Origin: a virus
Taxonomy: Duplodnaviria > Caudoviricetes
Length of the DNA stretch: 52,392 nt
Direction: 5' to 3' (one strand)
IMG/VR virus record: IMGVR_UViG_3300037502_000790
Location: 1 to 52,392 of that record
Below the pieces are notes generated by a model. That model had not been told where the DNA came from. It worked only from the letters and a program-made list of their open reading frames with translations, and ran no database searches. This document shows positions 1 through 52,392 of the stretch, one piece after another. Position 1 is the first letter of the stretch, and every line of letters begins with the position of its first letter. The position numbers and the translations under genes are program-made.

Positions 1-3000
1 GCTACCGTATAGGCAGGGGTTGCATCCCACTTCGAGAAGATGCGGTTGAAGTGTTCTTGTAGAGTGAGTGCGCCAACCACACCGGAGAAGCGGCCACGAC
101 GATAGCGGGTGCCCTCGCCGTCCTCGTCCGTGATGTCATCCAGATCCTTGGCGTTGGTGTCGTCACGCGCCATTACCTCTTTCAGATAGGCGTCGATCGT
201 GTTGTCAGGATTAGCGCCAGCCTCGATTGCAGCCTTGGCAATGTCGTTCAGCTCAGCAGCCTCATGCAGGATAGCCTTGAACTGACCCTCGTCAGCCTTG
301 GCAATCTGAGTGCGGTAGTTCATCCACATCTCAGGCGACAAGTAGCGCAGCTGATCGAGCTGGGAGTACACAGGCGAGCGCATCTTCATGTCGAGGTTGC
401 GCATTGCCTCTCTCACCTGACGGGTGAAGAACTCGTTGTACGCCTCTTGCTCTTCTTTCGTCAGTGCGTCGTTGACCTGACCCTCGAGATCAGGGCGGAC
501 AGCCAGCACATCTGAAATGTCTTGCAGCCAAGCGCGGACAGGATCAGGGAACAGATCGCGGATCATCTGGCGCAAAGGCACCTCGGTGATCGTGTCTGGA
601 TTCCTCATCTCCGACAGGGAGAACTGGTTGAACAGGGCGTTCGGGAACAGAGTTTCCAAACTGCCAGTCGAGAATGAAGCGTTGTCCTTGACGCGGTCGG
701 ACAGGCGCTGCATGTACTTCCTGCGGTTGTTCTTCCAGTTCTCGTAAGCAGTCGTTTCGGTATCACTAAGTGGTACCAAACTCTTGACGGGGACGTTGTC
801 GTAGGCTTTGAGCCACGCTTCACGCGCCATGTACGGACTCATCCCCGACTTCTCGATGTAGCCGTCGAGGGTGTAGTTCGCAGCGATGTTGCCCGACAGG
901 TCGATGAACCGCTTACCAACCTGAACACCAGCTTCGCGCATAGCGTCCAGCAGATGCATCACGCCGATGTCGTTCTCGCGGACAGCCTTGATGGCCTCCT
1001 CGAAGCTCATTTCCTTCTTCGCAACGGCGTCCACAAGGCGGCGAGCCTCGGTGCGCTGCTGGTCATTGAAGTCCAGCTCAGCTTGAATCTCGTTGCTGCC
1101 CGGGAATGTCTCGGGTTCAGCGTTGGTGTCTTTGGCTGGAGGAATCGCGGCGACGGTATCGCGCAGCTGCTCGTCAACAATCTGACCCAGCTCGCCATCA
1201 CGCAGTGCTTTCAGGTCGGACTCGGACTTTGAAACTGTGGCGTTGATCTCAGATTCGGAGAAGCCGTCTCTCGCCATCATATCCCGCACACCAGCAAGCT
1301 GACCCAACTTCCTATCGATGTCTCTGACCAAGGCGCGGACACGACCAGACATAATCTTGGCGTTCTCATCCACCAAGCGGTCAGCCTCAGCTCTTTCTTC
1401 CTCAGCCTTTTGATCGCGCAGCTCGACCTCAGTAGAACCCTCTACGCCATAGACGCCAGAGCGAGCGAGGTTGGTGAACACGCCGCCAGTGTCGTCATCA
1501 AACCAAGACGGATCACGTTCTTTGGCCGCATTCTTTGCCTTTTGGTCAGCGTCCCTTGCCTTGGTTCTTTCCTCGACTAAGCGGGACACGCCAGACATAA
1601 TCTCAGCGACTTGCCCGTCGAACGCGGTGCGAGATCTCGACAGTGGTAGATCGCCCTGAGCATCTTCTGCGAATGCAACCTTACTGCGCTTATCTTCAGT
1701 CTTCTGCAACTGCTCTGCTTCGCGGCTCAGCGCATCCATCGACAGACCAGTGGTCTCACCAACCTGTGCTGAACGGTACAGATCACCTGCTTGCTTGTAC
1801 TTCTTCTCAGCCAGCAGTCGCTTGATCTGCTCCACGGCCTTGTCTGTATCGATCTTCGGCTCGGTCTTGTTGGAGGCGTCGGAAGAACCCAGTAGCTTAG
1901 TGGCTGCGGCCTCATACTCGTCTGCGAGTTGCTTACGCTCAGCCAACACTTCGAGCATCCGAGACCGCTTGTCTTGTGTAGTGGCTGTATCGGCAACACG
2001 CCGCTCAATGCCCTCGACTGATTGGGCGAGCGCAACCATATCGCGGCCAACCTTTGCAAGCTTGCGGCCAGACTCAATCAAATCTGCGCCACGGTTTGGA
2101 TCTGTAGGCAGAAAACCGCCACCATCCGATTCCATTTTCTGACCGCGATCAACCAGTTCATTACCGCGCTGACGCAGTGCTTCAGAGGAAATACCGGCGC
2201 TTTCTGTAGCAACTTTCCGATCGGTTTCTTTCTGAAGGTCGGTGAACTTAACGCCAGTCTTTGCCATCAGCTTGTTGGCGGAGAAGAGTCTCGCGGCCTC
2301 AGGAACCTTGTTCTCAGACAGGAGCGAGCGCACCTGAGCTAGAGTTGCCTTGTCGTCATCGCTCGTGCTCTCGAAGGCGTTGTCGATCGCGCCGTCTTGA
2401 GTGAGGTCGAGGTTAGTCCCGCCTTTGGACTCGTTGACAAACCCAGCCAACATCCGACGCACTTGCTTGATCTCCGTCACATACGGAAGGATCTTTTCAT
2501 CTCTACTGGTCTTCGCGCCGAACTTTGCGATCATGTCATCAATGACCGCGAGGATTTTCTGTAATAGCCTAGGTTGCTTTTGACCAAGTTCTTGCCAGAA
2601 TGCGGGCTCTGTGAACATCGTGCCCATCAGATCCGCAACCATCTCCTCGTCAACCTTGCTGATGTCGTACCCAACTGCCAGCATTTTTGCCGCAAGCTGC
2701 TCACGACCATCCTGACGAACGTAAGATAAGACCTCTTGCTCTAATTGAGCAGCAGCTTCTGGATTGCGGCGGCGTAGCTCGTGATACAACTCATGACCAA
2801 AAATGGACAAGTGTTGATTTTCTTTATCGGCGTTAAGCATTACAACACCGCCAGACAAAGATGAGCCCAAACGAGACTTCAATAAATCATTGTTGCCAGC
2901 GTACCTAAATCCATACACTTGAACGCCAAAGCGCTTAGCTAATTCTCTGATCGTCGGAGCAACAGGGACAGGAATGTAGTCAGCAGGTTTGGCCGTAGGC

Positions 3001-5099
3001 TCTCTGGCTTGATCCCGCTGAGCCATACGCTCACGGACTTGAGCAAACGTCTGGAAGTTGGGATCGATCTTGGGCCGAATGTCTTCACGATCGCCGGGAG
3101 GAAGCCCATCAATCTTTTCAGTAGCTCCTTGCTGCGGATTAGCTATGGCGCCAAAGACTGCTTGAGCCTGCTCTGGGGTAAAGCCACGGCTAATCATCTC
3201 CTGCATCGAGGAGGTGGCGGCGGCGCGTCGAACAGCTTCAGGCATGCTCATGATGTTCTCTGCGCGGCGCTCGTAGCCACGGATCTGAACATCAAGAGGA
3301 GGTTGATTGGGGAACTGAACAGACGGGCCAGCGTTGAGAGTCGCAGGGTCTGGCGTAGCTGGAGGCTTCTCGCGGGAGAACTGACCCTCAGCAATGGCTT
3401 GTCCCTGATCTGCCAGCTCCTGTGCCATCTTCATGCGCTCACGAATAGGCATGAAGTCAGGAGGAGCGTCTAGGTCAGTGCCGCCATCAAATGGAGGGTC
3501 GTTCGGGTTGAAGTCGGTATTGCTGCCGGTCTGATTCAGACGGGTGTTGAAATCCTCGAAGAAGTCAGGATTGTTGTCGATGCGAGAGTTGCCTTCTTTC
3601 AGGAGATTTTCATCCTGAGACAGCTCTGCGAAATTGAGATCGGGGTTGGCAGCTTGTAGACGGGCGCGACCAGCTTCGTCGGAACGAGCCCATGCTGCAG
3701 CCATGTAGGAAGGATTGTTGACAGCCGCACCGTACTCAGCATCAGTCAGCGGAGGACGAGCAGGGGGTTGTTGCGTTTGTTGCGTTTGGTCAGGCGTGTC
3801 TACTGGAGGCGCAGCCGTCTCTGCGGACTTAGTGCCGCGAAGGGCGCTGACACCACCGAAGCCACCACCAGCAATGCCACCAAGAGCGGCACCAGCACCA
3901 GCGGCCTGAGGCACACCCTCGAATAGATCTTGATCAGGCTTGGCGCCGGAGAAGCGCGTACCCACGTTGGTTGCAAACTGAGAACCGCCTTCTTCACCAG
4001 CTTCTTGAGCGCTTTCTTTGAGGATGCCTTTGCCGACTTCGGTTGCGACCTTGCCAACAGTACGTTCGGCCAGCTCTGCACCAGCCTGACCAGTAAGCAC
4101 TTTAGCTTCGAGGGAACCAGCGCCAGAGACTTTGCCAGCGACAAGAGAGATCGCACCAGCCAGCGATGCAGCAACAGCGGAAGCGTCATTAGCCAAGCGC
4201 TCACGGGCTTGCTTGCGACCATCAGGGGTATCCCCAAGCTGTGTCACTAATGCCTGATACTGAGGCGACTGGCTAAGCTCTGCCTCACTCATCGTCATCA
4301 CGTTCTGACGAGCGTCCATACCTGCGGAGCCACCCTCGACTGCAGCGTTCAAACCAAGAACGGTGCGGGTAGCGCTGGTCGTAGCAGCAGCCTGAGCAGC
4401 CTCAGCAGACAGGCCAGCAGTGCTTGCAGCGGAGAATGCTCTGGCAGCAGCAAGGCGAGCCGCACCGGCCACGGTGAGAAGTTGAGGGCCCATCTCGAGC
4501 GCCATCATCCCAGCCAAGCGTGGGTTCGACACCACAGCAGTGAAGCTATCGATGAAGCCGTCTGCCTTCTCTAGCTCTGCGCGTTGTGCCTGAAGTTCAG
4601 CGGAGTCGTTGGCGCCCAGTTCCTTGCGATACCGGTCAATAACCTCTCCGGGGGTCGTGCCGGAGATGTATCTAGCGGCAGCGTCAGGCGCACCCATCGT
4701 CACCAGATTGGCTACTTCGTTGATGCCGCCTATCAGGCCAAGGCCACCCCTAGCAACGGAGCGACCAACGTCTCCAACTAGCGTTCCTTCCCCTTTCGGG
4801 GCGGGGGTAGATGTGGCTTGAGAAGAGTACTGCTCAGTCAGATTAGAAAGGAGTGACGCGACTAGCGGGTCTTCACCTGAGGATTGCTCTGGGGCGGGTT
4901 GAGGAGCAGGCTGGGGTGCGGGTTGAGTAGCAATCGCTGATCTACGCTGCATGTACTCTGCAGCCTCTTGCCCCGGAACATAGTCTCTACCTCTAGCAGA
5001 ACGGTAGAAGTCGCCCGGGTTGTAGCCCCCAGTTGAAATTGCCTGCCCCTTACGGCGGACACCCTTTCCTGCCTCGTCTGCTGTCTGGTAGATCGGCAT
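1..5099 (-). CDS. N-terminal ~1700 aa of giant polyvalent virion/ejection protein (continues across the circular junction at 52392)
   Basis: ATG at 5099 (MPIYQTADEAGKG...). It is absent from the ORF track and no listed ORF ends in this frame, consistent with no stop before position 1. Gly/Ala hydrophobic helices at ~3850-4750; zincin motif GHELYH (2781-2795) followed by EEMVAD. It is the last gene of the ejection cluster. Confidence 0.85.
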   Translation of the reverse strand, partial: MPIYQTADEAGKGVRRKGQAISTGGYNPGDFYRSARGRDYVPGQEAAEYMQRRSAIATQPAPQPAPQPAPEQSSGEDPLVASLLSNLTEQYSSQATSTPAPKGEGTLVGDVGRSVARGGLGLIGGINEVANLVTMGAPDAAARYISGTTPGEVIDRYRKELGANDSAELQAQRAELEKADGFIDSFTAVVSNPRLAGMMALEMGPQLLTVAGAARLAAARAFSAASTAGLSAEAAQAAATTSATRTVLGLNAAVEGGSAGMDARQNVMTMSEAELSQSPQYQALVTQLGDTPDGRKQARERLANDASAVAASLAGAISLVAGKVSGAGSLEAKVLTGQAGAELAERTVGKVATEVGKGILKESAQEAGEEGGSQFATNVGTRFSGAKPDQDLFEGVPQAAGAGAALGGIAGGGFGGVSALRGTKSAETAAPPVDTPDQTQQTQQPPARPPLTDAEYGAAVNNPSYMAAAWARSDEAGRARLQAANPDLNFAELSQDENLLKEGNSRIDNNPDFFEDFNTRLNQTGSNTDFNPNDPPFDGGTDLDAPPDFMPIRERMKMAQELADQGQAIAEGQFSREKPPATPDPATLNAGPSVQFPNQPPLDVQIRGYERRAENIMSMPEAVRRAAATSSMQEMISRGFTPEQAQAVFGAIANPQQGATEKIDGLPPGDREDIRPKIDPNFQTFAQVRERMAQRDQAREPTAKPADYIPVPVAPTIRELAKRFGVQVYGFRYAGNNDLLKSRLGSSLSGGVVMLNADKENQHLSIFGHELYHELRRRNPEAAAQLEQEVLSYVRQDGREQLAAKMLAVGYDISKVDEEMVADLMGTMFTEPAFWQELGQKQPRLLQKILAVIDDMIAKFGAKTSRDEKILPYVTEIKQVRRMLAGFVNESKGGTNLDLTQDGAIDNAFESTSDDDKATLAQVRSLLSENKVPEAARLFSANKLMAKTGVKFTDLQKETDRKVATESAGISSEALRQRGNELVDRGQKMESDGGGFLPTDPNRGADLIESGRKLAKVGRDMVALAQSVEGIERRVADTATTQDKRSRMLEVLAERKQLADEYEAAATKLLGSSDASNKTEPKIDTDKAVEQIKRLLAEKKYKQAGDLYRSAQVGETTGLSMDALSREAEQLQKTEDKRSKVAFAEDAQGDLPLSRSRTAFDGQVAEIMSGVSRLVEERTKARDADQKAKNAAKERDPSWFDDDTGGVFTNLARSGVYGVEGSTEVELRDQKAEEERAEADRLVDENAKIMSGRVRALVRDIDRKLGQLAGVRDMMARDGFSESEINATVSKSESDLKALRDGELGQIVDEQLRDTVAAIPPAKDTNAEPETFPGSNEIQAELDFNDQQRTEARRLVDAVAKKEMSFEEAIKAVRENDIGVMHLLDAMREAGVQVGKRFIDLSGNIAANYTLDGYIEKSGMSPYMAREAWLKAYDNVPVKSLVPLSDTETTAYENWKNNRRKYMQRLSDRVKDNASFSTGSLETLFPNALFNQFSLSEMRNPDTITEVPLRQMIRDLFPDPVRAWLQDISDVLAVRPDLEGQVNDALTKEEQEAYNEFFTRQVREAMRNLDMKMRSPVYSQLDQLRYLSPEMWMNYRTQIAKADEGQFKAILHEAAELNDIAKAAIEAGANPDNTIDAYLKEVMARDDTNAKDLDDITDEDGEGTRYRRGRFSGVVGALTLQEHFNRIFSKWDATPAYTV

Positions 5100-27781: not shown

Positions 27782-27856
27782 TGGTTGCGGAGGATGGAAT
27801 CGAACCACCGACCTCGGGATTATGAGTCCCGCGCTCTACCGCTGCGCTACTCCGCT
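27782..27856 (-). tRNA. tRNA with CAT anticodon (Met; fMet-like acceptor stem)
   Basis: AGCGGAG TAGCGCAGCGGTAGAGCGC..CGGGA CTCATAA TCCCG..GGTGGTTCGATTCCATC CTCCGCA A CCA; 75 nt, encoded CCA. Confidence 0.93.
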
Positions 27857-44610: not shown

Positions 44611-44949
44611 ATGCAGAACTGTCCAAAGTGTGAGGCGAAGACCGACGTTTATGACTCTCGCCTATCAATCGAGGGAGAGTTTCGTCGCAAGCGCAAGTGC
44701 CGGGGTTGCGGCTACCGATACGCAACCATTGAGGTGCTGGACACTGCTCGTCCACTAGATGAGAGACAGCCCAAACCAAAAGTGCCACCAAAGCCCAAGA
44801 GGGTTACAGCTTCCAAGCTGGTGAAGCCAGCAAGAGTAGTCAAAGAGAAGCGGGTCAGGCGGCTCGATGACGATGACTATGAAGTCGGTTCAGTCGAGTA
44901 CGAGATTCAGGACATAGCAAGAGAGCTGGGGATTGGAGACTTCACGTGA
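44611..44949 (+). CDS. NrdR-like N-terminal Zn ribbon protein
   Basis: CPKC...TDVYDSR....RRKRKCRGCGYRYATIE; lacks the ATP cone. Confidence 0.7.
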   Translation: MQNCPKCEAKTDVYDSRLSIEGEFRRKRKCRGCGYRYATIEVLDTARPLDERQPKPKVPPKPKRVTASKLVKPARVVKEKRVRRLDDDDYEVGSVEYEIQDIARELGIGDFT

Positions 44950-45773: not shown

Positions 45774-45803
45774 TTGTCAAGTATATCTCTGTGCTTATAC
45801 AAT
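45774..45803 (+). promoter_or_regulatory. Candidate int promoter
   Basis: TTGTCA-18 nt-TACAAT. Confidence 0.5.
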
Positions 45804-45834
45804 GCGCAGGCGTGTCCCCGGCTTGGAGGGGGTT

Positions 45835-46887
45835 ATGAAGTACTTCCAGCGTGGGAGCATTTGGTGGGGCCGGTGGAGCGTTAATGGTCAGCAGGTAAGG
45901 GTTTCCTCCCGCACCAGTAACGAGAAGCTAGCCAAAATTTACTTGGCTGATGAGTATGCCAAGTCGTTCAAAAAAGAACTGTTGAACGAGAAGCCTCGCA
46001 GGACTTGGAAAGAAGCAGTAGGCCGGTACCTTGAAGATCGTCAGCACCTGAGAACTATCGGGGCCTACGAGGATCACAAGGTCTGGTGGGATGGTGAGTT
46101 TGCTAAACGCAATGTTGTGTACATCGATCAGATCACGCCTGATGTTGTGCGCGAGATTCGTACTGCAGAGTTCAGCAGACCAAAACTTCGAGGTGGTGGT
46201 AAACGTAGTGCAGCAGATGTCAATCGCAAGATTGCTTTACTGCGAGCCGTTATACGTGCGGCGTACAAGGAGTACCGCTGGATCGATGGTGAGGCGCCGA
46301 TGTTCCGCTTCATCCCCGGCCAGACCGAACGGATGCGTCGGCTCCAACCTGAAGAAGTAGTCAGGCTGGCGAAGTCGCTACCTAAGGGGTACGCCGACTT
46401 GCTGTACATGGCAGTTGCTACAGGTCTTCGGCGCAGGAATGTGCTGAGGATGCGGTGGGATCAGATCGACTTCGGTCACCGCCTGTTGCGGGTGGATGGA
46501 GTGCAGATGAAGAACGGTGAGACGCTTGTGATCCCGTTGAACCAAATGGCGGTGGACATTATCCTGCGCCACAAGGACAACGGATCCGAGTGGGTGTTTC
46601 CCTTGAATGCGGGGAAGCCTCTTAACGAAATCTCATCGAAGATCTGGAGGCAAGCGCTTCAAAAAGCTGGCTTGGAAAATTTACGATGGCACGACATGCG
46701 TCATACGTGGGCGTCTCTGTTGCGCGAGAGTGGTGTTCCGATGGCCGACTTGAAAGAGTTAGGTGGGTGGAAAGATGCTCGTATGGTGGAGCGGTATGCT
46801 CACCTGAGTGTTGATCACTTGTCGAAACACGCCGTCGCAATTGACAGTGTGTTCGCGGTTGACAAGCGCCTAAAAGCGGTTGGTTGA
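45835..46887 (+). CDS. int: Tyrosine integrase, P22-like
   Basis: TGLRRRN, MKNG, HDMRHTWAS, LGGW, RYAHL; C-terminus resembles P22 Int; GGAGG SD before ATG 45835. Confidence 0.93.
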   Translation: MKYFQRGSIWWGRWSVNGQQVRVSSRTSNEKLAKIYLADEYAKSFKKELLNEKPRRTWKEAVGRYLEDRQHLRTIGAYEDHKVWWDGEFAKRNVVYIDQITPDVVREIRTAEFSRPKLRGGGKRSAADVNRKIALLRAVIRAAYKEYRWIDGEAPMFRFIPGQTERMRRLQPEEVVRLAKSLPKGYADLLYMAVATGLRRRNVLRMRWDQIDFGHRLLRVDGVQMKNGETLVIPLNQMAVDIILRHKDNGSEWVFPLNAGKPLNEISSKIWRQALQKAGLENLRWHDMRHTWASLLRESGVPMADLKELGGWKDARMVERYAHLSVDHLSKHAVAIDSVFAVDKRLKAVG

Positions 46888-46963
46888 TGGTGCCGCTGGT
46901 CCGACTCGAACGGACGACCTGACGCTTACGAAGCGCCTGCTCTACCAGCTGAGCTACAGCGGC
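46888..46963 (-). tRNA. tRNA-Thr(CGT), complete with CCA
   Basis: GCCGCTG TAGCTCAGCTGGTAGAGCA GGCGC TTCGTAA GCGTC AGGTC GTCCGTTCGAGTCGGAC CAGCGGC A CCA; 76 nt. Confidence 0.95.
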
Positions 46964-46970
46964 GGCACGA

Positions 46971-47164
46971 TTAGCACAGTCTTAGCACAGTAGCTTGTAA
47001 GTCATTGATTCGTAAAGGTGGCCTACTAATTACGAATCGAACGTAGTGGTAGTTAGTGCTACACAAAAGTCGTTATCTTTCAACATCTTACGCTGGGGAC
47101 ACGCAACTTAGCGAGCAGTAGAAAGCATACGAATAGCACAGTGATTAGCACAAATTTAGCACAG
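46971..47164. other. attP region (arm repeats, IHF sites, putative core)
   Basis: TTAGCACAG-like repeats at 46971, 46982, 47133, 47145, 47156; IHF consensus at 46998-47010 (minus, exact) and 47078-47090 (1 mismatch); anticodon-arm-like core at 47022-47038. Confidence 0.75.
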
Positions 47165-47186
47165 CGATTTTTCGGGAGGTCTACTC

Positions 47187-47597
47187 ATGCGCGATGAGTA
47201 CGTTCAAGCAGATGGGCAGAAAAGATTTAGCACAGTTAGCACAGTTAGCACGGATGAGGTCAACAACCCAAAGCATTACACCTCAGGGAAGATCGAGTGC
47301 ATCGAAGCGATTGAGGCAGCATTGACGCCGGAGGAACTGAAAGGGTTCTTAAAAGGCAACATCATCAAGTACACATGGCGAGAGCGGCATAAGGGCGGGG
47401 TGCAGTCGCTGGCAAAAGCGCAGTGGTATTTGAACCGCTTGCTGGGTACCGACTTGGCGCCGCCTGAAACGGACAAGCCATTGCCACAAATCCGAGATCT
47501 ACCAAAGACCCTTGGTGCGGCCTTGGGTATCAAGGATGATCTGGATGCATACGATAAAGTGGAAGCGTACTACTCGAAGAGGGGATTTGAACAATGA
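47187..47597 (+). CDS. DUF3310 (SaV-like) protein
   Basis: VNNPKHYTSGKIECIEAI...GFLKGNIIKYTWR..HKGG..SLAKAQWYLNRL. Confidence 0.85.
   Translation: MRDEYVQADGQKRFSTVSTVSTDEVNNPKHYTSGKIECIEAIEAALTPEELKGFLKGNIIKYTWRERHKGGVQSLAKAQWYLNRLLGTDLAPPETDKPLPQIRDLPKTLGAALGIKDDLDAYDKVEAYYSKRGFEQ
47227..47253 (+). repeat. Three tandem 9-bp copies of the arm motif inside a CDS
   Basis: TTAGCACAG TTAGCACAG TTAGCACGG. Confidence 0.85.
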
Positions 47598-47902
47598 GCT
47601 ACAACGAACTCGAACTGAACATCGTCCGCTGGTCTGAGGATCGGGGCATCATCCAGAACAGCGATGCTAAGACGCAGCTGCTGAAAGCTTTCGAAGAGAT
47701 GGGTGAGCTGGCGTCCGGAATCAACAAGAAGGACATGGCGCTCATCAAGGATGGCGTGGGGGATGTTGTGGTCTGCCTCATCAACGTCTGTGCGATTTTA
47801 GATATTAGCATTACTGAATGTCTTCAGCTTGCTTATGATGAAATCAGGGATCGCAAAGGTTATCTAACCAAAGATGGTGTATTCATCAAGGAGGCGGCAT
47901 GA
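47594..47902 (+). CDS. MazG-like nucleotide pyrophosphohydrolase
   Basis: WSEDRGII...QLLKAFEEMGELA...IKDGVGDVVVCL...CLQLAYDEIRDRKG...GVFIKE. Confidence 0.85.
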   Translation: MSYNELELNIVRWSEDRGIIQNSDAKTQLLKAFEEMGELASGINKKDMALIKDGVGDVVVCLINVCAILDISITECLQLAYDEIRDRKGYLTKDGVFIKEAA

Positions 47903-48158: not shown

Positions 48159-48628
48159 TGAACATTCACAGCTGTAGCTACTACTGCGACAAGCCTGCCT
48201 GCATCAAGCGGCAAAGAGACGAGCTGAGGGATAAACTGTTTGAAGAGTACGAGAGAAAGGAAAGTGTGGAGATGGGAGCGTTAGATAAGATCTACGCAGA
48301 AGCGAGGGAGTATGCGGAGGGTGAGCGCAGAGTAGCTCAAGAGGGCGTCATGCAGTTGGATATTCAAGCTCTTCGCAGGGAGTACATTGACCTGATGGCG
48401 ATGGTGGCGTACTACACCCGTCTCGAGCAGGCGATGTCTGCCACCCCGCGCCTACACTTCGACGCTCTGAAGAAGGCAATGAAGGACATCAAAGCCGATG
48501 AGATGCTGCATCAGGCAGATGTCGCGGCTGAAGATGGGATGCCGATTGCAGGGACCGCCCGTGTTCCGGCTAAGCCCCTGCTCGAGATCCTCTCACGACT
48601 GAAGGCAATGCTCAGCGATCGTCAATGA
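48158..48628 (+). CDS. Hypothetical protein with N-terminal HSCSYYCDKPAC motif
   Basis: TGATG coupling at 48158; overlaps the end of the giant gene convergently. Confidence 0.6.
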   Translation: MNIHSCSYYCDKPACIKRQRDELRDKLFEEYERKESVEMGALDKIYAEAREYAEGERRVAQEGVMQLDIQALRREYIDLMAMVAYYTRLEQAMSATPRLHFDALKKAMKDIKADEMLHQADVAAEDGMPIAGTARVPAKPLLEILSRLKAMLSDRQ

Positions 48629-51600
48629 CCGCATCTCGGAAGCCGCGACGCAGGGCTTGAGTCACAGCCCGGTTGCGGTACTCCTCCTTCATCTTGTCGT
48701 ACTTGTTGCGCATCTCGATGATCTCTTCCTCGGAGTAGCGAGGGTTGTCGGAGTTGGCCTCAACGATCCGGCTCATCCCCTTCATCTGCTGCTCCATGCC
48801 ATCGAACATAGCCTTCAGGCCACCAAGACCCGGATGATCTTTGATGATCTCCTGCTTGCGCTCTGTGCTGGTTCTACCTGACATGTACTCCTTGTACAGG
48901 GTATCGACGTCTTCCTTGACGCGACGGTAAGCTCCGCTGTCAAAAGTGGCGTCATCCACCTTAGCCTTGAACCTGCCCAGCACAGGGAGGTCTTGATCCT
49001 TGGTGTCGCGGCCAGCTGCAGCGTTGAGAGCCTTGCCCGTCCCTTGATACAGAGAAGAGATCAGACCCGGCAAGTAGCTGTTGATCAGGTAATCCACGGT
49101 TGCGGGATTCACATCGATCAACGACTCGTTGTACCTCGGATTCTTACCGCCAGACGTAGCCTCAGCCAAGAAGTGCATCAAGCTCTTCGAGATCGGGTTC
49201 ACGCTATCGAAATGCTTATAGGCGTCCGACTCTTGGATGGCGGAGAAATCGCCGTCACTCTTGGCAATCGGAGCGCCAAAGCGGTTCTCGTTCAGGCCCA
49301 GCTCGAGCAACGGAACCAGAGGGCTAGGCAGCAGCGTCTTACCAGCTTGACCCAAGAAGGTCTTCGATTCCACGCCGGAACCAATCGGCGCAAACGAATC
49401 GAATGCAGCCTTGACTACCTTGCCAGCTGAACTCTCTGCGCTGCGGTACCCCATAACCGTGTCGTAGGCGTACTGCCCCATCGTGGAGAACACGTTCCAG
49501 CCGTAGGCTACAGGGATCGAGCCGAAGTAGGTGTCAGGCAAGAAAGTGACCGAAGTTGCTCGCTTGTAGTCAGGCACCTTATCGATGGCGCGTAGACCGT
49601 CCTTGCGTTCTTCCTCGTCGTCATCTCCGAAGGCGTCGGCAATCATGCTGCTGATCATGCCCATTGTGATCCAGCCAGCAGACACGGCGGCGAAGCGCTT
49701 GTAGTTGCCTTCCTTGGCATCCTTGAACATACGCATCGTGCCCTGAATTGCCGGGTTGGCAAATACGTACAGGGCTCGCAGCGGCTTGTAGGCACCCTTC
49801 ATGTTGAAGTTGACGGTCAGCTCCTTGGCGTAGCGAGCAGCTCTCTCACGAGACCAACCGTTCTCACGCAGCACCTTGTATGCAGCTAGACGCGGGGCGA
49901 TTTCAGCCGGTGTGCCAAGCAGCTCCATCAGATCAGCAATCGCTTCGAACTTGCCAGTCGTCCAGACACCCGCATCCTTGACGCCCCGGATCTTGCCGAT
50001 CGTCATCGGGTTCAGGTGACGGTTCAGTTTGTCGATCGTCTGCTCGAGACCATTCCTGTCAATAAAGTAGGTAGCGGCACCGTCCTCAAAGAACTCGTTG
50101 ATCCACTTTTTCTCAGCATCCGACAGCGGATTCTTCTGAGCAGCAGCTTTCATGCGGTTGCCCCACCACCCCTGCTTCGCGTCAGCTTGCTCTGCCACTA
50201 GATGGCGGAAGGCGATACGGTGAGTGCGCTTCCACTCCATGAACATCTTGCCAGCCAACTCAGCGCCCACCTCAGGATCAGCGGCAGCGTTAGCAAATGC
50301 AGTCTGAATGTCTCGCACCATGTTGACCGGTACCCAAGCCGGGTTCATCGTCGTGACCATCTGGCTAAACAATCGGTTCCAGACAGCCACCGCTTCGATG
50401 AACGGCCCATTCTGGGTGACGTTCATGCCAGTGATGGCATCGAAGAAGTCCATCGACTTGCCGTTGAACTCCATCGTGATCGGCTTGCCGTTAACCTTGA
50501 CTACCACCTGACGATCCTTGTCGCCCGGGGTCTCAACGGTCGTGACGTACCCATCAGGGCTCAATCTTGCCGACATCACAACCTGCTCGTTGACGTTGCG
50601 AACTGCACGAGCTGCTTCGTCAGGAGAGATGTCGCGGCGAGCTTCAGCTTCATTGATGCGGCGAACCAGATCAGCCATAGCTTCATCGCTGTCCAGTGTG
50701 CCGTCTTTCATCTGGCGCTGGAGACCAACAAGGTATTCGCGGCCCGAGTCATTGGTCGGAGCATCGCCAATCGCAGACAGGACTTTCTTGTCGAAGGTCA
50801 GGCGATCGATGTTGATCTGCTTGCGACGATTGACGTTCTCAACCTTGACGTAGCTCTGGTCAGGGTTCTGCTCGAACATCTGCAGAATGGCTTGCAGCGG
50901 ACGGTTCTTCTGACCACGGATGATCGTAGACAGGTACGAGTTCATCGTGTTCTGCAGTACGTCCACAGCGACCGTGCCACGACCAGTTGCCCGAATGATG
51001 TCGGAGCCACGCACATTGAAGGAGCGTCCACCCAACTGGCTCATGTCGTACTTGTCGAGATCCAACTCCTGATTGCCGGAGAGGTTCACGTAGTGCTTGT
51101 AGCGGGAGAGGGACTCGTACTGGTACTTGTTGATCAGGCCGGTGTCGAGCATGTAGTTAAGCTTTGCTTTACTCATCTCATCCATCAACTTGCCGATCTC
51201 GTCCAGCTCGGAGCTGAAGTCTGCCCATTTGCCGTCGTTATCACCGCTCAGGATCTTCTGTGCTTCTTTGGTATCCAGACCGGAGCCACGCGAGTTCTTC
51301 GGATTGATCGCCTTGATGAAACGGTTACGCTCCTCGGCGTGACGCGCCATCAGATACAGGTCGATGTCTTCCAGCGTTGCGCCCTTCTTGCCAGCCTCAC
51401 CCATCAAGCGGGTTATCGGGCGAGCATAGGCTTTCTCGTAGTTGTCAATAAACCACTTGGTGCGGGACTCGTACTTGATCAGATCATCGATCACAGAGTT
51501 CTTGATGCCCTTGCCCTCGAGGAACTTTGCCACCTCGAAGATCGGCAGGAACATGTTCTGACCTTGGATCAGCATGTTGCGCTTGAAGCGAGCCCAGCCG

Positions 51601-52392
51601 GTAACGTCGTTGAAGTTCGGGATCTCCGCCACATTCTTCGGATCAACCTCTTGGCGCGTCGAGCGGTCACGAGCCATCGTCACCTGACCCACCTTCTTCA
51701 GCAGATCGTGTGCATCCACAAGCTCTTCAACGGTGTGAACCGTGTAGTTGCCTGAAGCAAGAGACTCTGCGCCAGAGTTCAGGGTAAAGACAGTCCAGTA
51801 CCCATTGACCGGGTTGATGCGGGTGTAGCCGGTGACCTTGCCGTCACGAATAGCGTAGCCCTCAACAGGCATCTTCTTCGAGCGGTTGTACATCACATCG
51901 GAGGGGGCGCCATCGAGCGGGGAGATGCCCTGCTTGGACATTGCCACCTTGCGAGCCTGCGACAGGACGAATGCCAGCTCGGAGGATCCAGTCGAATCCA
52001 GCCAGCTTGCCACGTTGCTCATGCCGTGCTTCTTCAGCCAGCGCACCAGACGACCCATCAACTCACGGAATGCACTTGCATTACCTTCCGTTGCCTGATC
52101 AGCAATGGCTTCCTCGATGGACTCCAGCTTGCTCATCGGCATGCCGTTCTCTTTGGCTTCTGCAGCCAGACGATCAGCAGCTTCACGAACCTTCTGGTTG
52201 ACCTTGTACTGGTTGTTCAGGAAGGAGTCGATTCCATCCCCGAGGAAAGCCTTCATGCCCCAGTGACCGTACAGCTCGTGGAACATCGTGAACTCGGCAT
52301 CCTCCACCGACTCGGCAAACTCCGAGAAGATGTAGATGTGTCCCGTTTTGGGATCAATCGCACCTTTGAATGAGCCATTCTCAAAGCGGCTC
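48612..52392 (-). CDS. C-terminal ~1260 aa of giant polyvalent virion protein (second zincin-like domain, LPD38-like C-terminus)
   Basis: Frame open to the window edge; FHELYGH...EEAIAD; AKELTVNFNMKG, LYVFANPAIQG, NENRFGAPI, INSYLPG motifs. Confidence 0.88.
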   Translation of the reverse strand, partial: SRFENGSFKGAIDPKTGHIYIFSEFAESVEDAEFTMFHELYGHWGMKAFLGDGIDSFLNNQYKVNQKVREAADRLAAEAKENGMPMSKLESIEEAIADQATEGNASAFRELMGRLVRWLKKHGMSNVASWLDSTGSSELAFVLSQARKVAMSKQGISPLDGAPSDVMYNRSKKMPVEGYAIRDGKVTGYTRINPVNGYWTVFTLNSGAESLASGNYTVHTVEELVDAHDLLKKVGQVTMARDRSTRQEVDPKNVAEIPNFNDVTGWARFKRNMLIQGQNMFLPIFEVAKFLEGKGIKNSVIDDLIKYESRTKWFIDNYEKAYARPITRLMGEAGKKGATLEDIDLYLMARHAEERNRFIKAINPKNSRGSGLDTKEAQKILSGDNDGKWADFSSELDEIGKLMDEMSKAKLNYMLDTGLINKYQYESLSRYKHYVNLSGNQELDLDKYDMSQLGGRSFNVRGSDIIRATGRGTVAVDVLQNTMNSYLSTIIRGQKNRPLQAILQMFEQNPDQSYVKVENVNRRKQINIDRLTFDKKVLSAIGDAPTNDSGREYLVGLQRQMKDGTLDSDEAMADLVRRINEAEARRDISPDEAARAVRNVNEQVVMSARLSPDGYVTTVETPGDKDRQVVVKVNGKPITMEFNGKSMDFFDAITGMNVTQNGPFIEAVAVWNRLFSQMVTTMNPAWVPVNMVRDIQTAFANAAADPEVGAELAGKMFMEWKRTHRIAFRHLVAEQADAKQGWWGNRMKAAAQKNPLSDAEKKWINEFFEDGAATYFIDRNGLEQTIDKLNRHLNPMTIGKIRGVKDAGVWTTGKFEAIADLMELLGTPAEIAPRLAAYKVLRENGWSRERAARYAKELTVNFNMKGAYKPLRALYVFANPAIQGTMRMFKDAKEGNYKRFAAVSAGWITMGMISSMIADAFGDDDEEERKDGLRAIDKVPDYKRATSVTFLPDTYFGSIPVAYGWNVFSTMGQYAYDTVMGYRSAESSAGKVVKAAFDSFAPIGSGVESKTFLGQAGKTLLPSPLVPLLELGLNENRFGAPIAKSDGDFSAIQESDAYKHFDSVNPISKSLMHFLAEATSGGKNPRYNESLIDVNPATVDYLINSYLPGLISSLYQGTGKALNAAAGRDTKDQDLPVLGRFKAKVDDATFDSGAYRRVKEDVDTLYKEYMSGRTSTERKQEIIKDHPGLGGLKAMFDGMEQQMKGMSRIVEANSDNPRYSEEEIIEMRNKYDKMKEEYRNRAVTQALRRGFRDAVIDDR

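What the first reader, a model, noticed from the sequence alone, without database searches (positions are those of the whole stretch)
46888..47164. attP that would break the host tRNA-Thr and supply a complete spare instead of the usual 3' half
Seen: arm repeats and inverted IHF sites bracket 47022-47038, whose minus strand GATTCGTAATTAGTAGG mimics only a tRNA-Thr(CGT) anticodon loop, 3' stem and AGG, with no T-arm or acceptor. A full tRNA-Thr(CGT) lies outside the arms, ~60 nt downstream in the same orientation, abutting the int stop. GATTCGTAA also recurs inverted at 47007-47015. Known: P22-family integrases cross over in the thrW anticodon loop and normally restore the gene with a ~46-bp duplication. 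Inference: integration destroys the host gene and places the sequence-divergent phage tRNA under the host promoter, as a replacement that is itself a poor target for re-integration.
Basis: partly seen in the sequence, partly recalled or inferred. Interest (0 to 1): 0.72.

Follow-up and report, generated by a model that had tools for sequence, protein, structure and literature searches.

The report
Phage attP with spare tRNA-Thr
This temperate phage's integration site keeps only a stub of the tRNA-Thr piece that its relatives use to repair the host gene, and it carries a whole tRNA-Thr gene beside it, a layout that fits the recently described 'tRNA-dependent lysogeny'.

Summary
A tyrosine integrase gene (45802-46887) abuts a complete antisense tRNA-Thr(CGT) (46888-46963). 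Beyond it, TTAGCACAG repeats (46971-46990; 47133-47164) and IHF-like sites bracket a ~20-nt piece (47019-47040, minus strand) matching only the anticodon loop, 3' stem and variable loop of a tRNA-Thr(CGT).

Comparison supports it. Two complete IMG/VR relatives (Int 53-55%) have no tRNA-Thr gene. At the same position between the same kind of repeats they carry a full tRNA 3' half (loop to CCA), as P22 does. The window's group and a 64%-Int relative (L034) lack the T-arm and acceptor there and carry the whole tRNA.

A Ser(TGA) group in the same Int family shows the same layout. The full tRNA keeps its pairing through compensatory changes, and int is under purifying selection (dN/dS about 0.06).

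This matches tRNA-dependent lysogeny (Guerrero-Bustamante and Hatfull, mBio 2024), so it is a new member of a known kind.

Not shown: the host, attB, any integrated copy, tRNA expression, or a need for the tRNA. One close relative (L004) has lost the loop match, and one family member (L143) has a full tRNA without a stub.

The parts
45802..46887 (+). Tyrosine integrase gene (361 aa) with an arm-binding-type N-terminal domain
   Evidence: PF00589, E 2.3e-30; phrog_1 integrase; 29% identity to P22 Int over the full length, E 4e-54; dN/dS 0.056-0.068 against close relatives
46888..46963 (-). Complete tRNA-Thr(CGT) with CCA encoded; its 3' end abuts the int stop codon; proposed replacement tRNA
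   Evidence: ARAGORN; Rfam RF00005 66 bits; 76/76 identical in L002-L005; 12 differences from the L034 tRNA, 10 of them in stems and all keeping the pairing; G27-C43 changed to A27-U43 in relatives in runs X12-X14
46971..46990 (+). Proximal pair of arm-type repeats (TTAGCACAG x2, 11-nt spacing)
   Evidence: homologous pairs lie at L113 6028-6047 and L114 6046-6065, inside the int 3' ends
46998..47010 (-). IHF-consensus site next to the end of the tRNA remnant
   Evidence: exact consensus match; the same position relative to the tRNA 3' end as in L114 and P22, read
47019..47040 (-). Truncated tRNA-Thr(CGT) piece: 4 nt 5' of the loop, the anticodon loop TTCGTAA (47030-47036), the 3' anticodon stem and the variable loop. 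Proposed attP core and crossover region. T-arm and acceptor are absent.
   Evidence: 18/19 identity to the L114 core; the alignment shows a 23-column gap where L113 and L114 have T-arm and acceptor; no tRNA hit by cmscan, against 5'-truncated tRNA hits in L114 and L113
47007..47015 (+). Left arm of the 9-nt inverted repeat (its partner is 47030-47038); overlaps the IHF-site flank; probably incidental
   Evidence: I4; not kept as a pair in L004 or L034
47078..47090 (+). Second IHF-like site (1 mismatch), inverted relative to the first
47096..47121 (+). Conserved block (GGGGACRCGCAA ... GAGCAGT) present in all four lineages; role unknown (accessory-protein site?)
   Evidence: the IMG/VR pattern scan returned 7 loci, 5 from this phage group and 2 chance hits in coding DNA
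47133..47164 (+). Distal set of three arm-type repeats, directly upstream of the DUF3310 gene
   Evidence: counterparts at L113 6259-6278 and L114 6277-6285
47227..47253 (+). Three more tandem copies of the 9-nt repeat inside the N-terminus of the DUF3310 ORF; copy number varies between relatives
   Evidence: absent in L002, L003 and L005 and shorter in L004; a 9-nt deletion in a contig of run X12

Best explanation
The region is the attP-int module of a temperate phage whose integrase belongs to the P22/lambda-type, arm-binding tyrosine recombinases.

The crossover core is the ~20-nt tRNA-Thr(CGT) anticodon-loop piece at 47019-47040. It sits between arm-type repeats and IHF-like sites. Relatives and P22 carry the whole 3' half of the target tRNA at this position. 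This lineage has lost the T-arm and acceptor strand.

Recombination with a host tRNA-Thr(CGT) gene in or near the anticodon loop would therefore join the host 5' half to non-tRNA DNA and would not rebuild the gene.

The complete, sequence-divergent tRNA-Thr(CGT) between the arm repeats and int would lie 66 nt downstream of the broken gene, in the same orientation, and would supply the missing tRNA. This is tRNA-dependent lysogeny as defined by Guerrero-Bustamante and Hatfull (2024).

Shown here: the anatomy, its homology to canonical attPs, selection on the tRNA and on int, and recurrence of the layout with another tRNA isotype. Inferred: the target, the crossover point, loss of the host tRNA, complementation, and how the phage tRNA is expressed.
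For: 1. Position homology. L114 (Int 55%) and L113 (Int 53%) carry 5'-truncated tRNA matches between matching repeat pairs. L114 6117-6158 matches model positions 31-71 at 21.7 bits, E 0.006. L113 6097-6141 matches positions 28-71 at 21.2 bits, E 0.008. The same stretch of the window gives nothing at E<=10.

2. Window 47022-47040 is 18/19 identical to the loop-proximal end of the L114 piece.

3. The complete relatives G466 (direct terminal repeats, 100% complete) and G467 (100% complete) hold a single tRNA each, a tRNA-Met(CAT), and no tRNA-Thr. The window, 6 close relatives and L034 (Int 64%) have both the full tRNA-Thr(CGT) and the truncated piece.

4. P22's own record shows the same order (tRNA-Thr piece from loop to CCA, IHF-consensus site, arm repeats in the int 3' end), and its Int aligns over the full length.

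5. The tRNA is functional by sequence. It scores 66 bits. Of its 12 differences from the L034 tRNA, 10 are in stems and all keep the pairing: four double changes (5:68, 6:67, 27:43, 52:62) and two single changes (28:42, 49:65). Relatives in runs X12-X14 carry a compensatory 27:43 change.

6. int is under purifying selection (dN/dS 0.056-0.068 at dS 0.24-0.83; 0.109 against L034), so integration is in use.

7. Recurrence. Of 45 classifiable Int relatives among 80 IMG/VR loci, 31 have a canonical T-arm + acceptor + CCA fragment and no full tRNA. Three (L145, L147, L149) have a full antisense tRNA-Ser(TGA) 4-10 nt after the int stop. Their 7-nt anticodon loop recurs on the same strand 111-116 nt beyond the tRNA, between arm-like repeats and without a T-arm.

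8. The arm motif follows the Int N-terminal domain in one pair. L034 and L114 share TTGGTACAG-type repeats and 54/64 (84%) N-domain identity, against 58% in the other two domains.

9. The phenomenon is shown experimentally in actinobacteriophages, with the same contrast between short-core/tRNA-carrying phages and long-core/tRNA-less relatives (PMC10865867: abstract and sections 5, 6, 10, 11 read).
Against: No integrated copy, attB or host was found. All close relatives seen are in the attP form. The Int scan of one genome per species gave only 23-41% relatives, none beside a tRNA-Thr.

L004 (Int 94%) has 9 changes in the 20 nt over the loop and its 5' flank and has lost the TTCGTAA copy there, yet it keeps the full tRNA-Thr.

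L143 (Int 37%) has a full tRNA-Lys(CTT) at the int stop and a phage lysozyme gene beyond, but no second loop copy. In this family a full tRNA beside int therefore does not always come with a stub.

The window and L113 share the arm motif, but their N-domains are no more alike (38/64, 59%) than those of other pairs.

The window and L034 probably share one ancestral event, so the Thr case counts once.

The distance from the core to the proximal arm is about 45 nt shorter than in L114 and P22. Whether such an attP works is untested.

tRNA-Thr(CGT) may be dispensable in the host, since wobble reading by tRNA-Thr(UGU) is possible (general knowledge, recalled). In that case the tRNA would not be required.
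Confidence: 0.6

Rival explanations
1. The complete tRNA-Thr(CGT) is itself the attP core, an unusually long homology with the host gene. The ~20-nt piece between the repeats is then a fossil of an older core, and integration would rebuild the host gene as usual.
For: The tRNA abuts the int stop just as the tRNA fragment does in L114, where it starts 5 nt after the stop. It is 76/76 invariant among close relatives while its flanks vary. L143 shows a full tRNA at the int stop in a phage context without a second loop copy. L004 has lost the loop copy in the stub.
Against: No arm repeat or IHF site lies on the int side of the full tRNA: there is no TTAGCACAG at <=1 mismatch on either strand in 45798-46970. 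All repeats would then sit on one side of the core, unlike P22, L113 and L114. The stub keeps the exact P22/L114 order of piece, IHF site and arm repeats. The stub's loop and 4-nt 5' flank are identical in the window, L005, L034 and L114 despite 55-64% Int identity. The best tRNA match in 401 sampled genomes of one phylum was 84%, though that sample is small.
Confidence: 0.13
2. The stub is the working core and integration does break the host tRNA-Thr(CGT), but the host tolerates the loss. The phage tRNA would then be ordinary cargo (codon supply, or a counter to tRNA-cleaving defences) rather than a required replacement.
For: The phage and its relatives also carry an unrelated tRNA-Met(CAT) far from int, so tRNA cargo is normal in this group. 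Wobble reading can make a CGT isoacceptor dispensable in some bacteria (recalled). PMC10865867 section 10 reports Daredevil, which does not rebuild the host tRNA and has no tRNA of its own.
Against: The cargo tRNA has the same anticodon as the att stub in two separate isotype groups, Thr(CGT) and Ser(TGA), and in both it sits directly beside the att site in the orientation that follows the broken gene. Relatives with a full restoring piece lack it.
Confidence: 0.17
3. The attP is decaying or retargeted. The phage no longer integrates at tRNA-Thr (it may use another site or none), and the stub is a relic.
For: T-arm and acceptor are lost. L004 has a diverged patch over the loop. No integrated form was seen in any collection searched.
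Against: int is under strong purifying selection across dS up to 0.83, and also against L034. Repeats, the IHF site and the loop with its flank are conserved across lineages with 55-64% Int identity.
Confidence: 0.07

Closest known systems
tRNA-dependent lysogeny of actinobacteriophages (Fionnbharth K4, Cluster L, Cain K6, Gaia X; Guerrero-Bustamante and Hatfull, mBio 2024, PMC10865867)
   Same: A tyrosine Int with flanking arm-type sites. An attP core of only 8-17 bp over a host tRNA, so the tRNA is not rebuilt. [quoted passage not shown] Close relatives with related Ints have 43-52 bp cores and no tRNA. Gaia's tRNA lies downstream of int (abstract and sections 5, 6, 10, 11 read).
   Different: Here nothing is experimental and the host is unknown. 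The Int is P22-like, and its best GenBank phage hits are 34-36% identical, to Burkholderia, Ralstonia and Aggregatibacter phages. The tRNA sits between int and the proximal arm repeats, 66 nt downstream of the core, with no detected promoter of its own. Fionnbharth's tRNA is elsewhere in the genome and has a demonstrated promoter.
P22 attP / thrW
   Same: The target anticodon (Thr-CGT), the convergent int, and the order tRNA piece, IHF-consensus site, arm repeats, as read from the NC_002371 record. Int is 29% identical over its full length.
   Different: P22 carries the piece from the anticodon loop to CCA and so restores the gene. The window keeps only the loop, 3' stem and variable loop, and adds a whole tRNA gene. 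That the host gene is thrW and the common core is about 46 bp is recalled, not from a call.
Relatives L114 and L113 (IMG/VR complete genomes)
   Same: The same Int family (53-55%), the same arm-repeat layout, the same conserved block and IHF site, and the same tRNA-Met cargo.
   Different: They carry full 3' halves, Thr(CGT) in L114 and a CAT-anticodon tRNA in L113, and no cognate full tRNA. Their proximal arm repeats lie inside the int 3' end.
Other reported cases outside Actinobacteria: the Lactobacillus johnsonii Lj965 prophage, and Sinorhizobium prophages like Mesorhizobium phage Lo5R7ANS
   Same: These are said to fail to rebuild the tRNA and to carry a cognate tRNA. For Lj965 I read the mention in PMC10865867 section 11. 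For Sinorhizobium I read only passages of PMC12429752 and PMC11476347.
   Different: I did not compare sequences, and no relation to this phage was tested.

Membership tests
tRNA-dependent lysogeny (PMC10865867) | A phage tyrosine integrase recombines attP with an attB that overlaps a host tRNA gene | tested here: inconclusive
   The tyrosine Int is confirmed. The attP core is tRNA-derived by homology to L114, L113 and P22. No host, attB or junction was found.
tRNA-dependent lysogeny (PMC10865867) | The common core is too short for a functional tRNA to be rebuilt at the junction | tested here: met
   The tRNA-like piece is about 20 nt with no T-arm or acceptor. cmscan finds nothing at E<=10 and ARAGORN finds nothing. 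The alignment shows a 23-column gap against L113 and L114. The true attB/attP identity is unknown.
tRNA-dependent lysogeny (PMC10865867) | [quoted passage not shown] | tested here: met
   tRNA-Thr(CGT) at 46888-46963. The stub carries the same 7-nt loop, TTCGTAA.
tRNA-dependent lysogeny (PMC10865867) | The phage tRNA is required for viable lysogens (clear plaques when it is deleted) | not testable with these tools
   This needs a host and genetics.
tRNA-dependent lysogeny (PMC10865867) | Relatives with related Ints use long cores and lack the tRNA | tested here: met
   L113 and L114; 31 of 45 classifiable family members have canonical fragments.
P22-type attP (restoring tRNA-Thr 3' piece) | Integrase homologous to P22 Int | tested here: met
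   29% identity, 108/371 aligned, E 4e-54, full length. This is a distant relationship.
P22-type attP (restoring tRNA-Thr 3' piece) | attP carries the tRNA segment from the anticodon loop to CCA | tested here: not met
   The segment is present in P22 and L114 but truncated in the window.
P22-type attP (restoring tRNA-Thr 3' piece) | Arm-type repeats on both sides of the core, with IHF site(s) | tested here: met
   These are sequence matches only; no binding data exist.

The most novel reading that the evidence does not exclude
The spare tRNA has no promoter of its own and is switched on by integration. The crossover would place it 66 nt behind the severed 5' half of the host tRNA-Thr gene, so the host tRNA promoter would drive it and would read on antisense into int. 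Supply of the tRNA would then be specific to the lysogen. Its anticodon stem shares 0 of 5 positions on the 3' side with the stub, which would keep it from acting as an attB for its own integrase. The int-tRNA-arm-stub layout would be a recurrent solution, since it is seen with Thr(CGT) and with Ser(TGA) in one integrase family of uncultured phages whose closest GenBank integrase hits (34-36%) are phages of Gram-negative bacteria.
Probability: 0.3. Interest if true: 0.6.

Novelty: new member of a known kind. Interest (0 to 1): 0.45.

Why it matters
tRNA-dependent lysogeny has been demonstrated only in actinobacteriophages, and its authors asked how common it is elsewhere. Here a P22-like integrase family from freshwater, soil and subsurface metagenomes shows both states side by side. 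Some members have a full restoring piece and no tRNA. Others have a stub and a cognate tRNA, and this second state occurs for two tRNA isotypes.

That gives a clean comparative series for asking how the switch evolves. It also gives a simple rule for annotating such phages: a complete tRNA next to int is not necessarily the attachment site. Host prediction from attP/tRNA identity would also be misled by such phages.

Tried and rejected
**Search for integrated copies or the host**
- The Int scan of one genome per species gave 25 loci at 23-41% identity. None of the 25 lies beside a tRNA-Thr.
- The Int scan of JGI metagenome contigs gave L032-L035, all in the attP form.
- I laid four Logan-contig runs (X12-X15) on 46200-47700. 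There were no joints. The loose ends at 46923/46956 belong to short contigs that match only 34 nt of the tRNA with 4 mismatches, so they are other tRNAs.
- IMG/VR pattern scans with a 17-nt stretch gave 34 loci. BLAST of the 32 new ones showed homology only in L101 and L109, which are the L004 and L002 contigs; L003 and L005, already held, were left out of that BLAST. A scan with 34 nt of the tRNA returned only the 4 known relatives.
- The full tRNA against 401 sampled genomes of the phylum of G002 gave a best match of 84%. Against 61 genomes of the class of G003 it gave 0 at E<=1e-12.
- L114's 45-nt piece at <=3 mismatches gave 0 of 401.
- These are samples, so they show only 'not found in those searched'. 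One sampled genome (G388) is flagged unpublished, and it enters only these tallies.

**Other checks that led nowhere**
- The simple sigma-70 and terminator scan of 46700-47400 found none of either. This is weak evidence because the host is unknown.
- A GenBank phage blastn of the region matched only generic tRNAs, at <=84%.
- I rejected the inverted repeat as a pair of core-type sites. The 14-nt spacer is too long for the 6-8 nt stagger of tyrosine recombinases, and the pair is not conserved.
- I rejected Melainabacteria as the host despite many weak Int hits there.
- Supplementary figures of PMC10865867 that show arm-type sites could not be seen.

Full report
**What the window is.** The window is a whole IMG/VR virus record of 52,392 bases, classed as linear and estimated 93% complete by CheckV. 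Joining its two ends gives one uninterrupted 8,880-nt ORF of 2,959 aa on the minus strand. There is no terminal repeat, so the contig is a circularly closed or permuted genome, not a prophage cut from a host. It encodes a terminase, a portal/adaptor protein, a primase-helicase, an Erf-type annealing protein, an exonuclease, a CI/LexA-like repressor and a tyrosine integrase, so it is a temperate phage.

**The observation.** The int ORF (45802-46887, plus strand) ends where a complete tRNA-Thr(CGT) ends (46888-46963, minus strand, CCA encoded; ARAGORN, Rfam 66 bits). To the right lie direct TTAGCACAG repeats: two at 46971-46990, three at 47133-47164, and three more at 47227-47253 inside the next ORF. 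All five exact copies in the window, and three of its one-mismatch copies, fall in this 283-nt stretch in one orientation.

Between the first two sets lie an exact IHF-consensus match (46998-47010, minus strand) and a one-mismatch match in the inverted orientation (47078-47090). These are the only two matches at that stringency in 3.6 kb. The consensus is recalled, not taken from a tool. Also between the sets is a 9-nt perfect inverted repeat, 47007-47015 / 47030-47038. Its right arm, read on the minus strand, holds the 7-nt anticodon loop of the phage's own tRNA (TTCGTAA), 66 nt upstream of that tRNA and in the same orientation.

**What decides the reading: relatives.**
- Six close relatives (Int 91-96%: L002-L005, L032, L033), plus L035, whose contig begins inside int (the last 69 Int residues are identical), have the same layout and are all in the phage (attP) form.
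- L034 (Int 64%) also has a full but different tRNA-Thr(CGT) abutting int, shifted repeats (TTGGTACAG-like), and the same short loop-bearing piece.
- L113 (Int 53%) and L114 (Int 55%) come from complete genomes G466 (terminal repeats, 100% complete) and G467 (100% complete). Each holds a single tRNA, a tRNA-Met(CAT) like the window's at 27782-27856, and no tRNA-Thr.

In L113 and L114 the proximal repeat pair lies inside the int 3' end (L113 6028-6047; L114 6046-6065) and the distal repeats follow (L113 6259-6278; L114 6277-6285). Between the two sets sits a textbook tRNA 3' half on the minus strand. cmscan reports 5'-truncated tRNA matches at L114 6117-6158 (model 31-71, 21.7 bits, E 0.006; Thr-CGT loop) and at L113 6097-6141 (model 28-71, 21.2 bits, E 0.008; CAT anticodon). 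The same search on the window's stretch finds nothing at E<=10.

In the alignment of the six att regions, the window, L005, L004 and L034 have a 23-column gap exactly where L113 and L114 have the T-arm and acceptor strand. They have a second gap of about 24 columns between the IHF site and the proximal repeats. Window 47022-47040 is 18/19 identical to the loop-proximal end of L114's piece.

P22's GenBank record shows the same order: a tRNA-Thr piece from the anticodon loop to CCA, an IHF-consensus site, then arm repeats in the int 3' end. P22 Int aligns with this Int over its full length at 29% identity (E 4e-54).

The core of this attP family therefore lies between the repeats. In the window's lineage it has been cut down to the loop, the 3' anticodon stem and the variable loop.

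**Is the module alive?** int evolves under strong purifying selection. dN/dS is 0.056-0.068 at dS 0.24-0.83 within the close group, and 0.109 against L034.

The full tRNA is 76/76 identical in L002-L005 while its flanks vary. Against L034's tRNA it differs at 12 of 76 positions. Ten of these are in stems and all keep the pairing: double changes at 5:68, 6:67, 27:43 and 52:62, and single changes at 28:42 and 49:65. Relatives in three sequencing runs carry 46921 G>A together with 46937 C>T, which is G27-C43 changed to A27-U43. This is the signature of a working tRNA, not of a passive homology patch.

The four bases 5' of the loop and the loop itself are identical in the window, L005, L034 and L114.

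**Are the repeats arm-type Int sites?** Their layout matches P22 and lambda-type attPs, they flank a tRNA-derived core in four lineages, and they are spaced 9-12 nt apart. L034 and L114 share the TTGGTACAG variant and an Int N-terminal domain that is 84% identical (54/64), against 58% for the other two domains. That is what a swap of the arm-binding domain together with its sites would give. Against this, the window and L113 share TTAGCACAG but their N-domains are only 59% identical (38/64), no more alike than other pairs. No binding data exist.

**Recurrence.** An IMG/VR scan with an alignment of five Ints returned 80 loci with Int 32-53% identical to the window's, one of them (L125) on the L113 contig.
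- 35 of the 80 have fewer than 250 nt after the int stop and were set aside.
- Of the other 45, 31 have a T-arm + acceptor + CCA fragment near the int stop and no full tRNA. This is the canonical state.
- 9 show nothing by my regular-expression test.
- 5 have a full antisense tRNA within 40 nt of the int stop.

Of those five, L145, L147 and L149 carry tRNA-Ser(TGA). Their 7-nt anticodon loop recurs on the same strand 111-116 nt beyond the tRNA, and not on the other strand. It lies between arm-like repeats and has no T-arm nearby. L149 has a polyvalent-protein (LPD38) gene beyond it, which is typical of mobile elements, so it is likely in the attP form. A given 7-mer is expected about 0.024 times on one strand in 400 nt, so finding it in two separate isotype groups is unlikely by chance.

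The other two are L126 (Asn) and L143 (Lys-CTT), and neither shows a second loop copy. L126 looks like the integrated form of the many Asn-fragment relatives. L143 has a phage lysozyme gene beyond the tRNA and remains unexplained.

**Mechanism.** The following is inferred. Int, helped by IHF bending at the flanking sites, pairs the stub with the anticodon stem-loop of a host tRNA-Thr(CGT) and exchanges strands in or next to the loop, as P22-type enzymes do. Because the phage side supplies no T-arm or acceptor, the left junction is a dead gene: the host promoter, the host 5' half, then about 66 nt of phage DNA. The host 3' half is stranded at the other end of the prophage.

The full phage tRNA follows directly in the same orientation, so it can take over. 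Whether it is driven by the host promoter or by a promoter of its own is open. The simple scan found no promoter and no terminator, which is weak evidence.

Its 3' anticodon stem shares 0 of 5 positions with the stub, both in the window and in L034 (read).

**Comparison with what is known.** This is the published phenomenon of tRNA-dependent lysogeny (PMC10865867; abstract and sections 5, 6, 10 and 11 read). In that work cores of 8-17 bp fail to rebuild the tRNA, a cognate phage tRNA is needed for viable lysogens, relatives have 43-52 bp cores and no tRNA, and Gaia's tRNA lies downstream of int. The authors ask whether it occurs outside actinobacteriophages and mention Lj965.

A full-text search for the term found 23 papers. 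Passages in two of them report, from sequence, a similar case in Sinorhizobium prophages.

The present case is therefore a new member of a known kind. It lies in a P22-like Int family of uncultured phages seen in freshwater, aquaculture, drinking-water, soil and subsurface runs (13 studies, one of them possibly the source of this DNA). Its best GenBank phage Int hits are 34-36% identical, to Burkholderia, Ralstonia and Aggregatibacter phages.

**What remains against or open.**
- No host, attB or junction was found.
- L004 (Int 94%) has 9 changes in the 20 nt over the loop and has lost the loop copy, yet keeps the tRNA-Thr.
- L143 does not fit the rule.
- The window and L034 probably descend from one event.
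- The shortened distance between core and arm is untested.
- tRNA-Thr(CGT) may be dispensable in the host.

I put 0.6 on the full reading, and about 0.8 on the narrower claim that the core is the stub and not the full tRNA.

Noticed in passing
window 48612-52392 joined to 1-5099, minus strand: The two open ORFs at the contig ends join in frame into one 2,959-aa ORF with no internal stop, so the record is circularly closed or permuted. The giant protein was not characterised.
   Followed up: partly
window 27782-27856 (minus strand); L120, L121, L122: A second tRNA, Met(CAT), lies far from int. It is conserved as the only tRNA in the complete relatives G466 and G467, and it is also present in the L004 record. 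Its role is unknown. L113's attP core is the 3' half of a CAT-anticodon tRNA, but I did not compare the two.
   Followed up: partly
window 47227-47253, inside the DUF3310 ORF (47187-47597): Three tandem copies of the 9-nt arm motif are translated as part of the protein's N-terminus. They are absent in L002, L003 and L005, there are two in L004, and one unit is missing in a contig of run X12. They may be extra Int sites or a slippage-prone repeat.
   Followed up: no
L004 7159-7365 (aligned to window 47022-47041): This close relative (Int 94%) has a local patch with 9 changes in 20 nt over the stub's loop and 5' flank, while the flanks are nearly identical. The new loop-like sequence reads TTCAGGG on the tRNA-sense strand. 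It may reflect a retargeted or converted core.
   Followed up: partly
L034 / L114 against window / L113: The family is mosaic. The arm motif and the Int N-domain group L034 with L114 (84% N-domain identity). The tRNA-plus-stub state groups L034 with the window. L113 shares the window's arm motif but targets a CAT-anticodon tRNA.
   Followed up: partly
L145, L147, L149 (IMG/VR): A tRNA-Ser(TGA) group has the same int - full tRNA - repeat - short loop copy - repeat layout. The sequence in their int 3' ends resembles P22's arm motif in inverted orientation, by eye only.
   Followed up: partly
L143 (IMG/VR): A full tRNA-Lys(CTT) lies 14 nt after the int stop with a phage lysozyme gene about 100 nt beyond it. 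No second loop copy was found, so here the whole tRNA may be the core.
   Followed up: partly
window 47096-47121 and the homologous blocks in L034, L113 and L114: A block (GGGGACRCGCAA ... GAGCAGT) is conserved across lineages with 53-64% Int identity. It lies between the core and the distal repeats, and its function is unknown.
   Followed up: no
L113 6096-6141, plus strand: The antisense strand of L113's tRNA piece matches the Rfam 'Plastid-ycf2 5UTR' family at 24.5 bits (gathering score 65.7). This is probably because that family overlaps a plastid CAU-anticodon tRNA gene, which hints that L113's target is a tRNA-Ile2-like gene. The link is my inference.
   Followed up: no
window 44611-44949: A small ORF upstream of int has an NrdR-like zinc-ribbon domain (PF22811, E 3.2e-10).
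   Followed up: no
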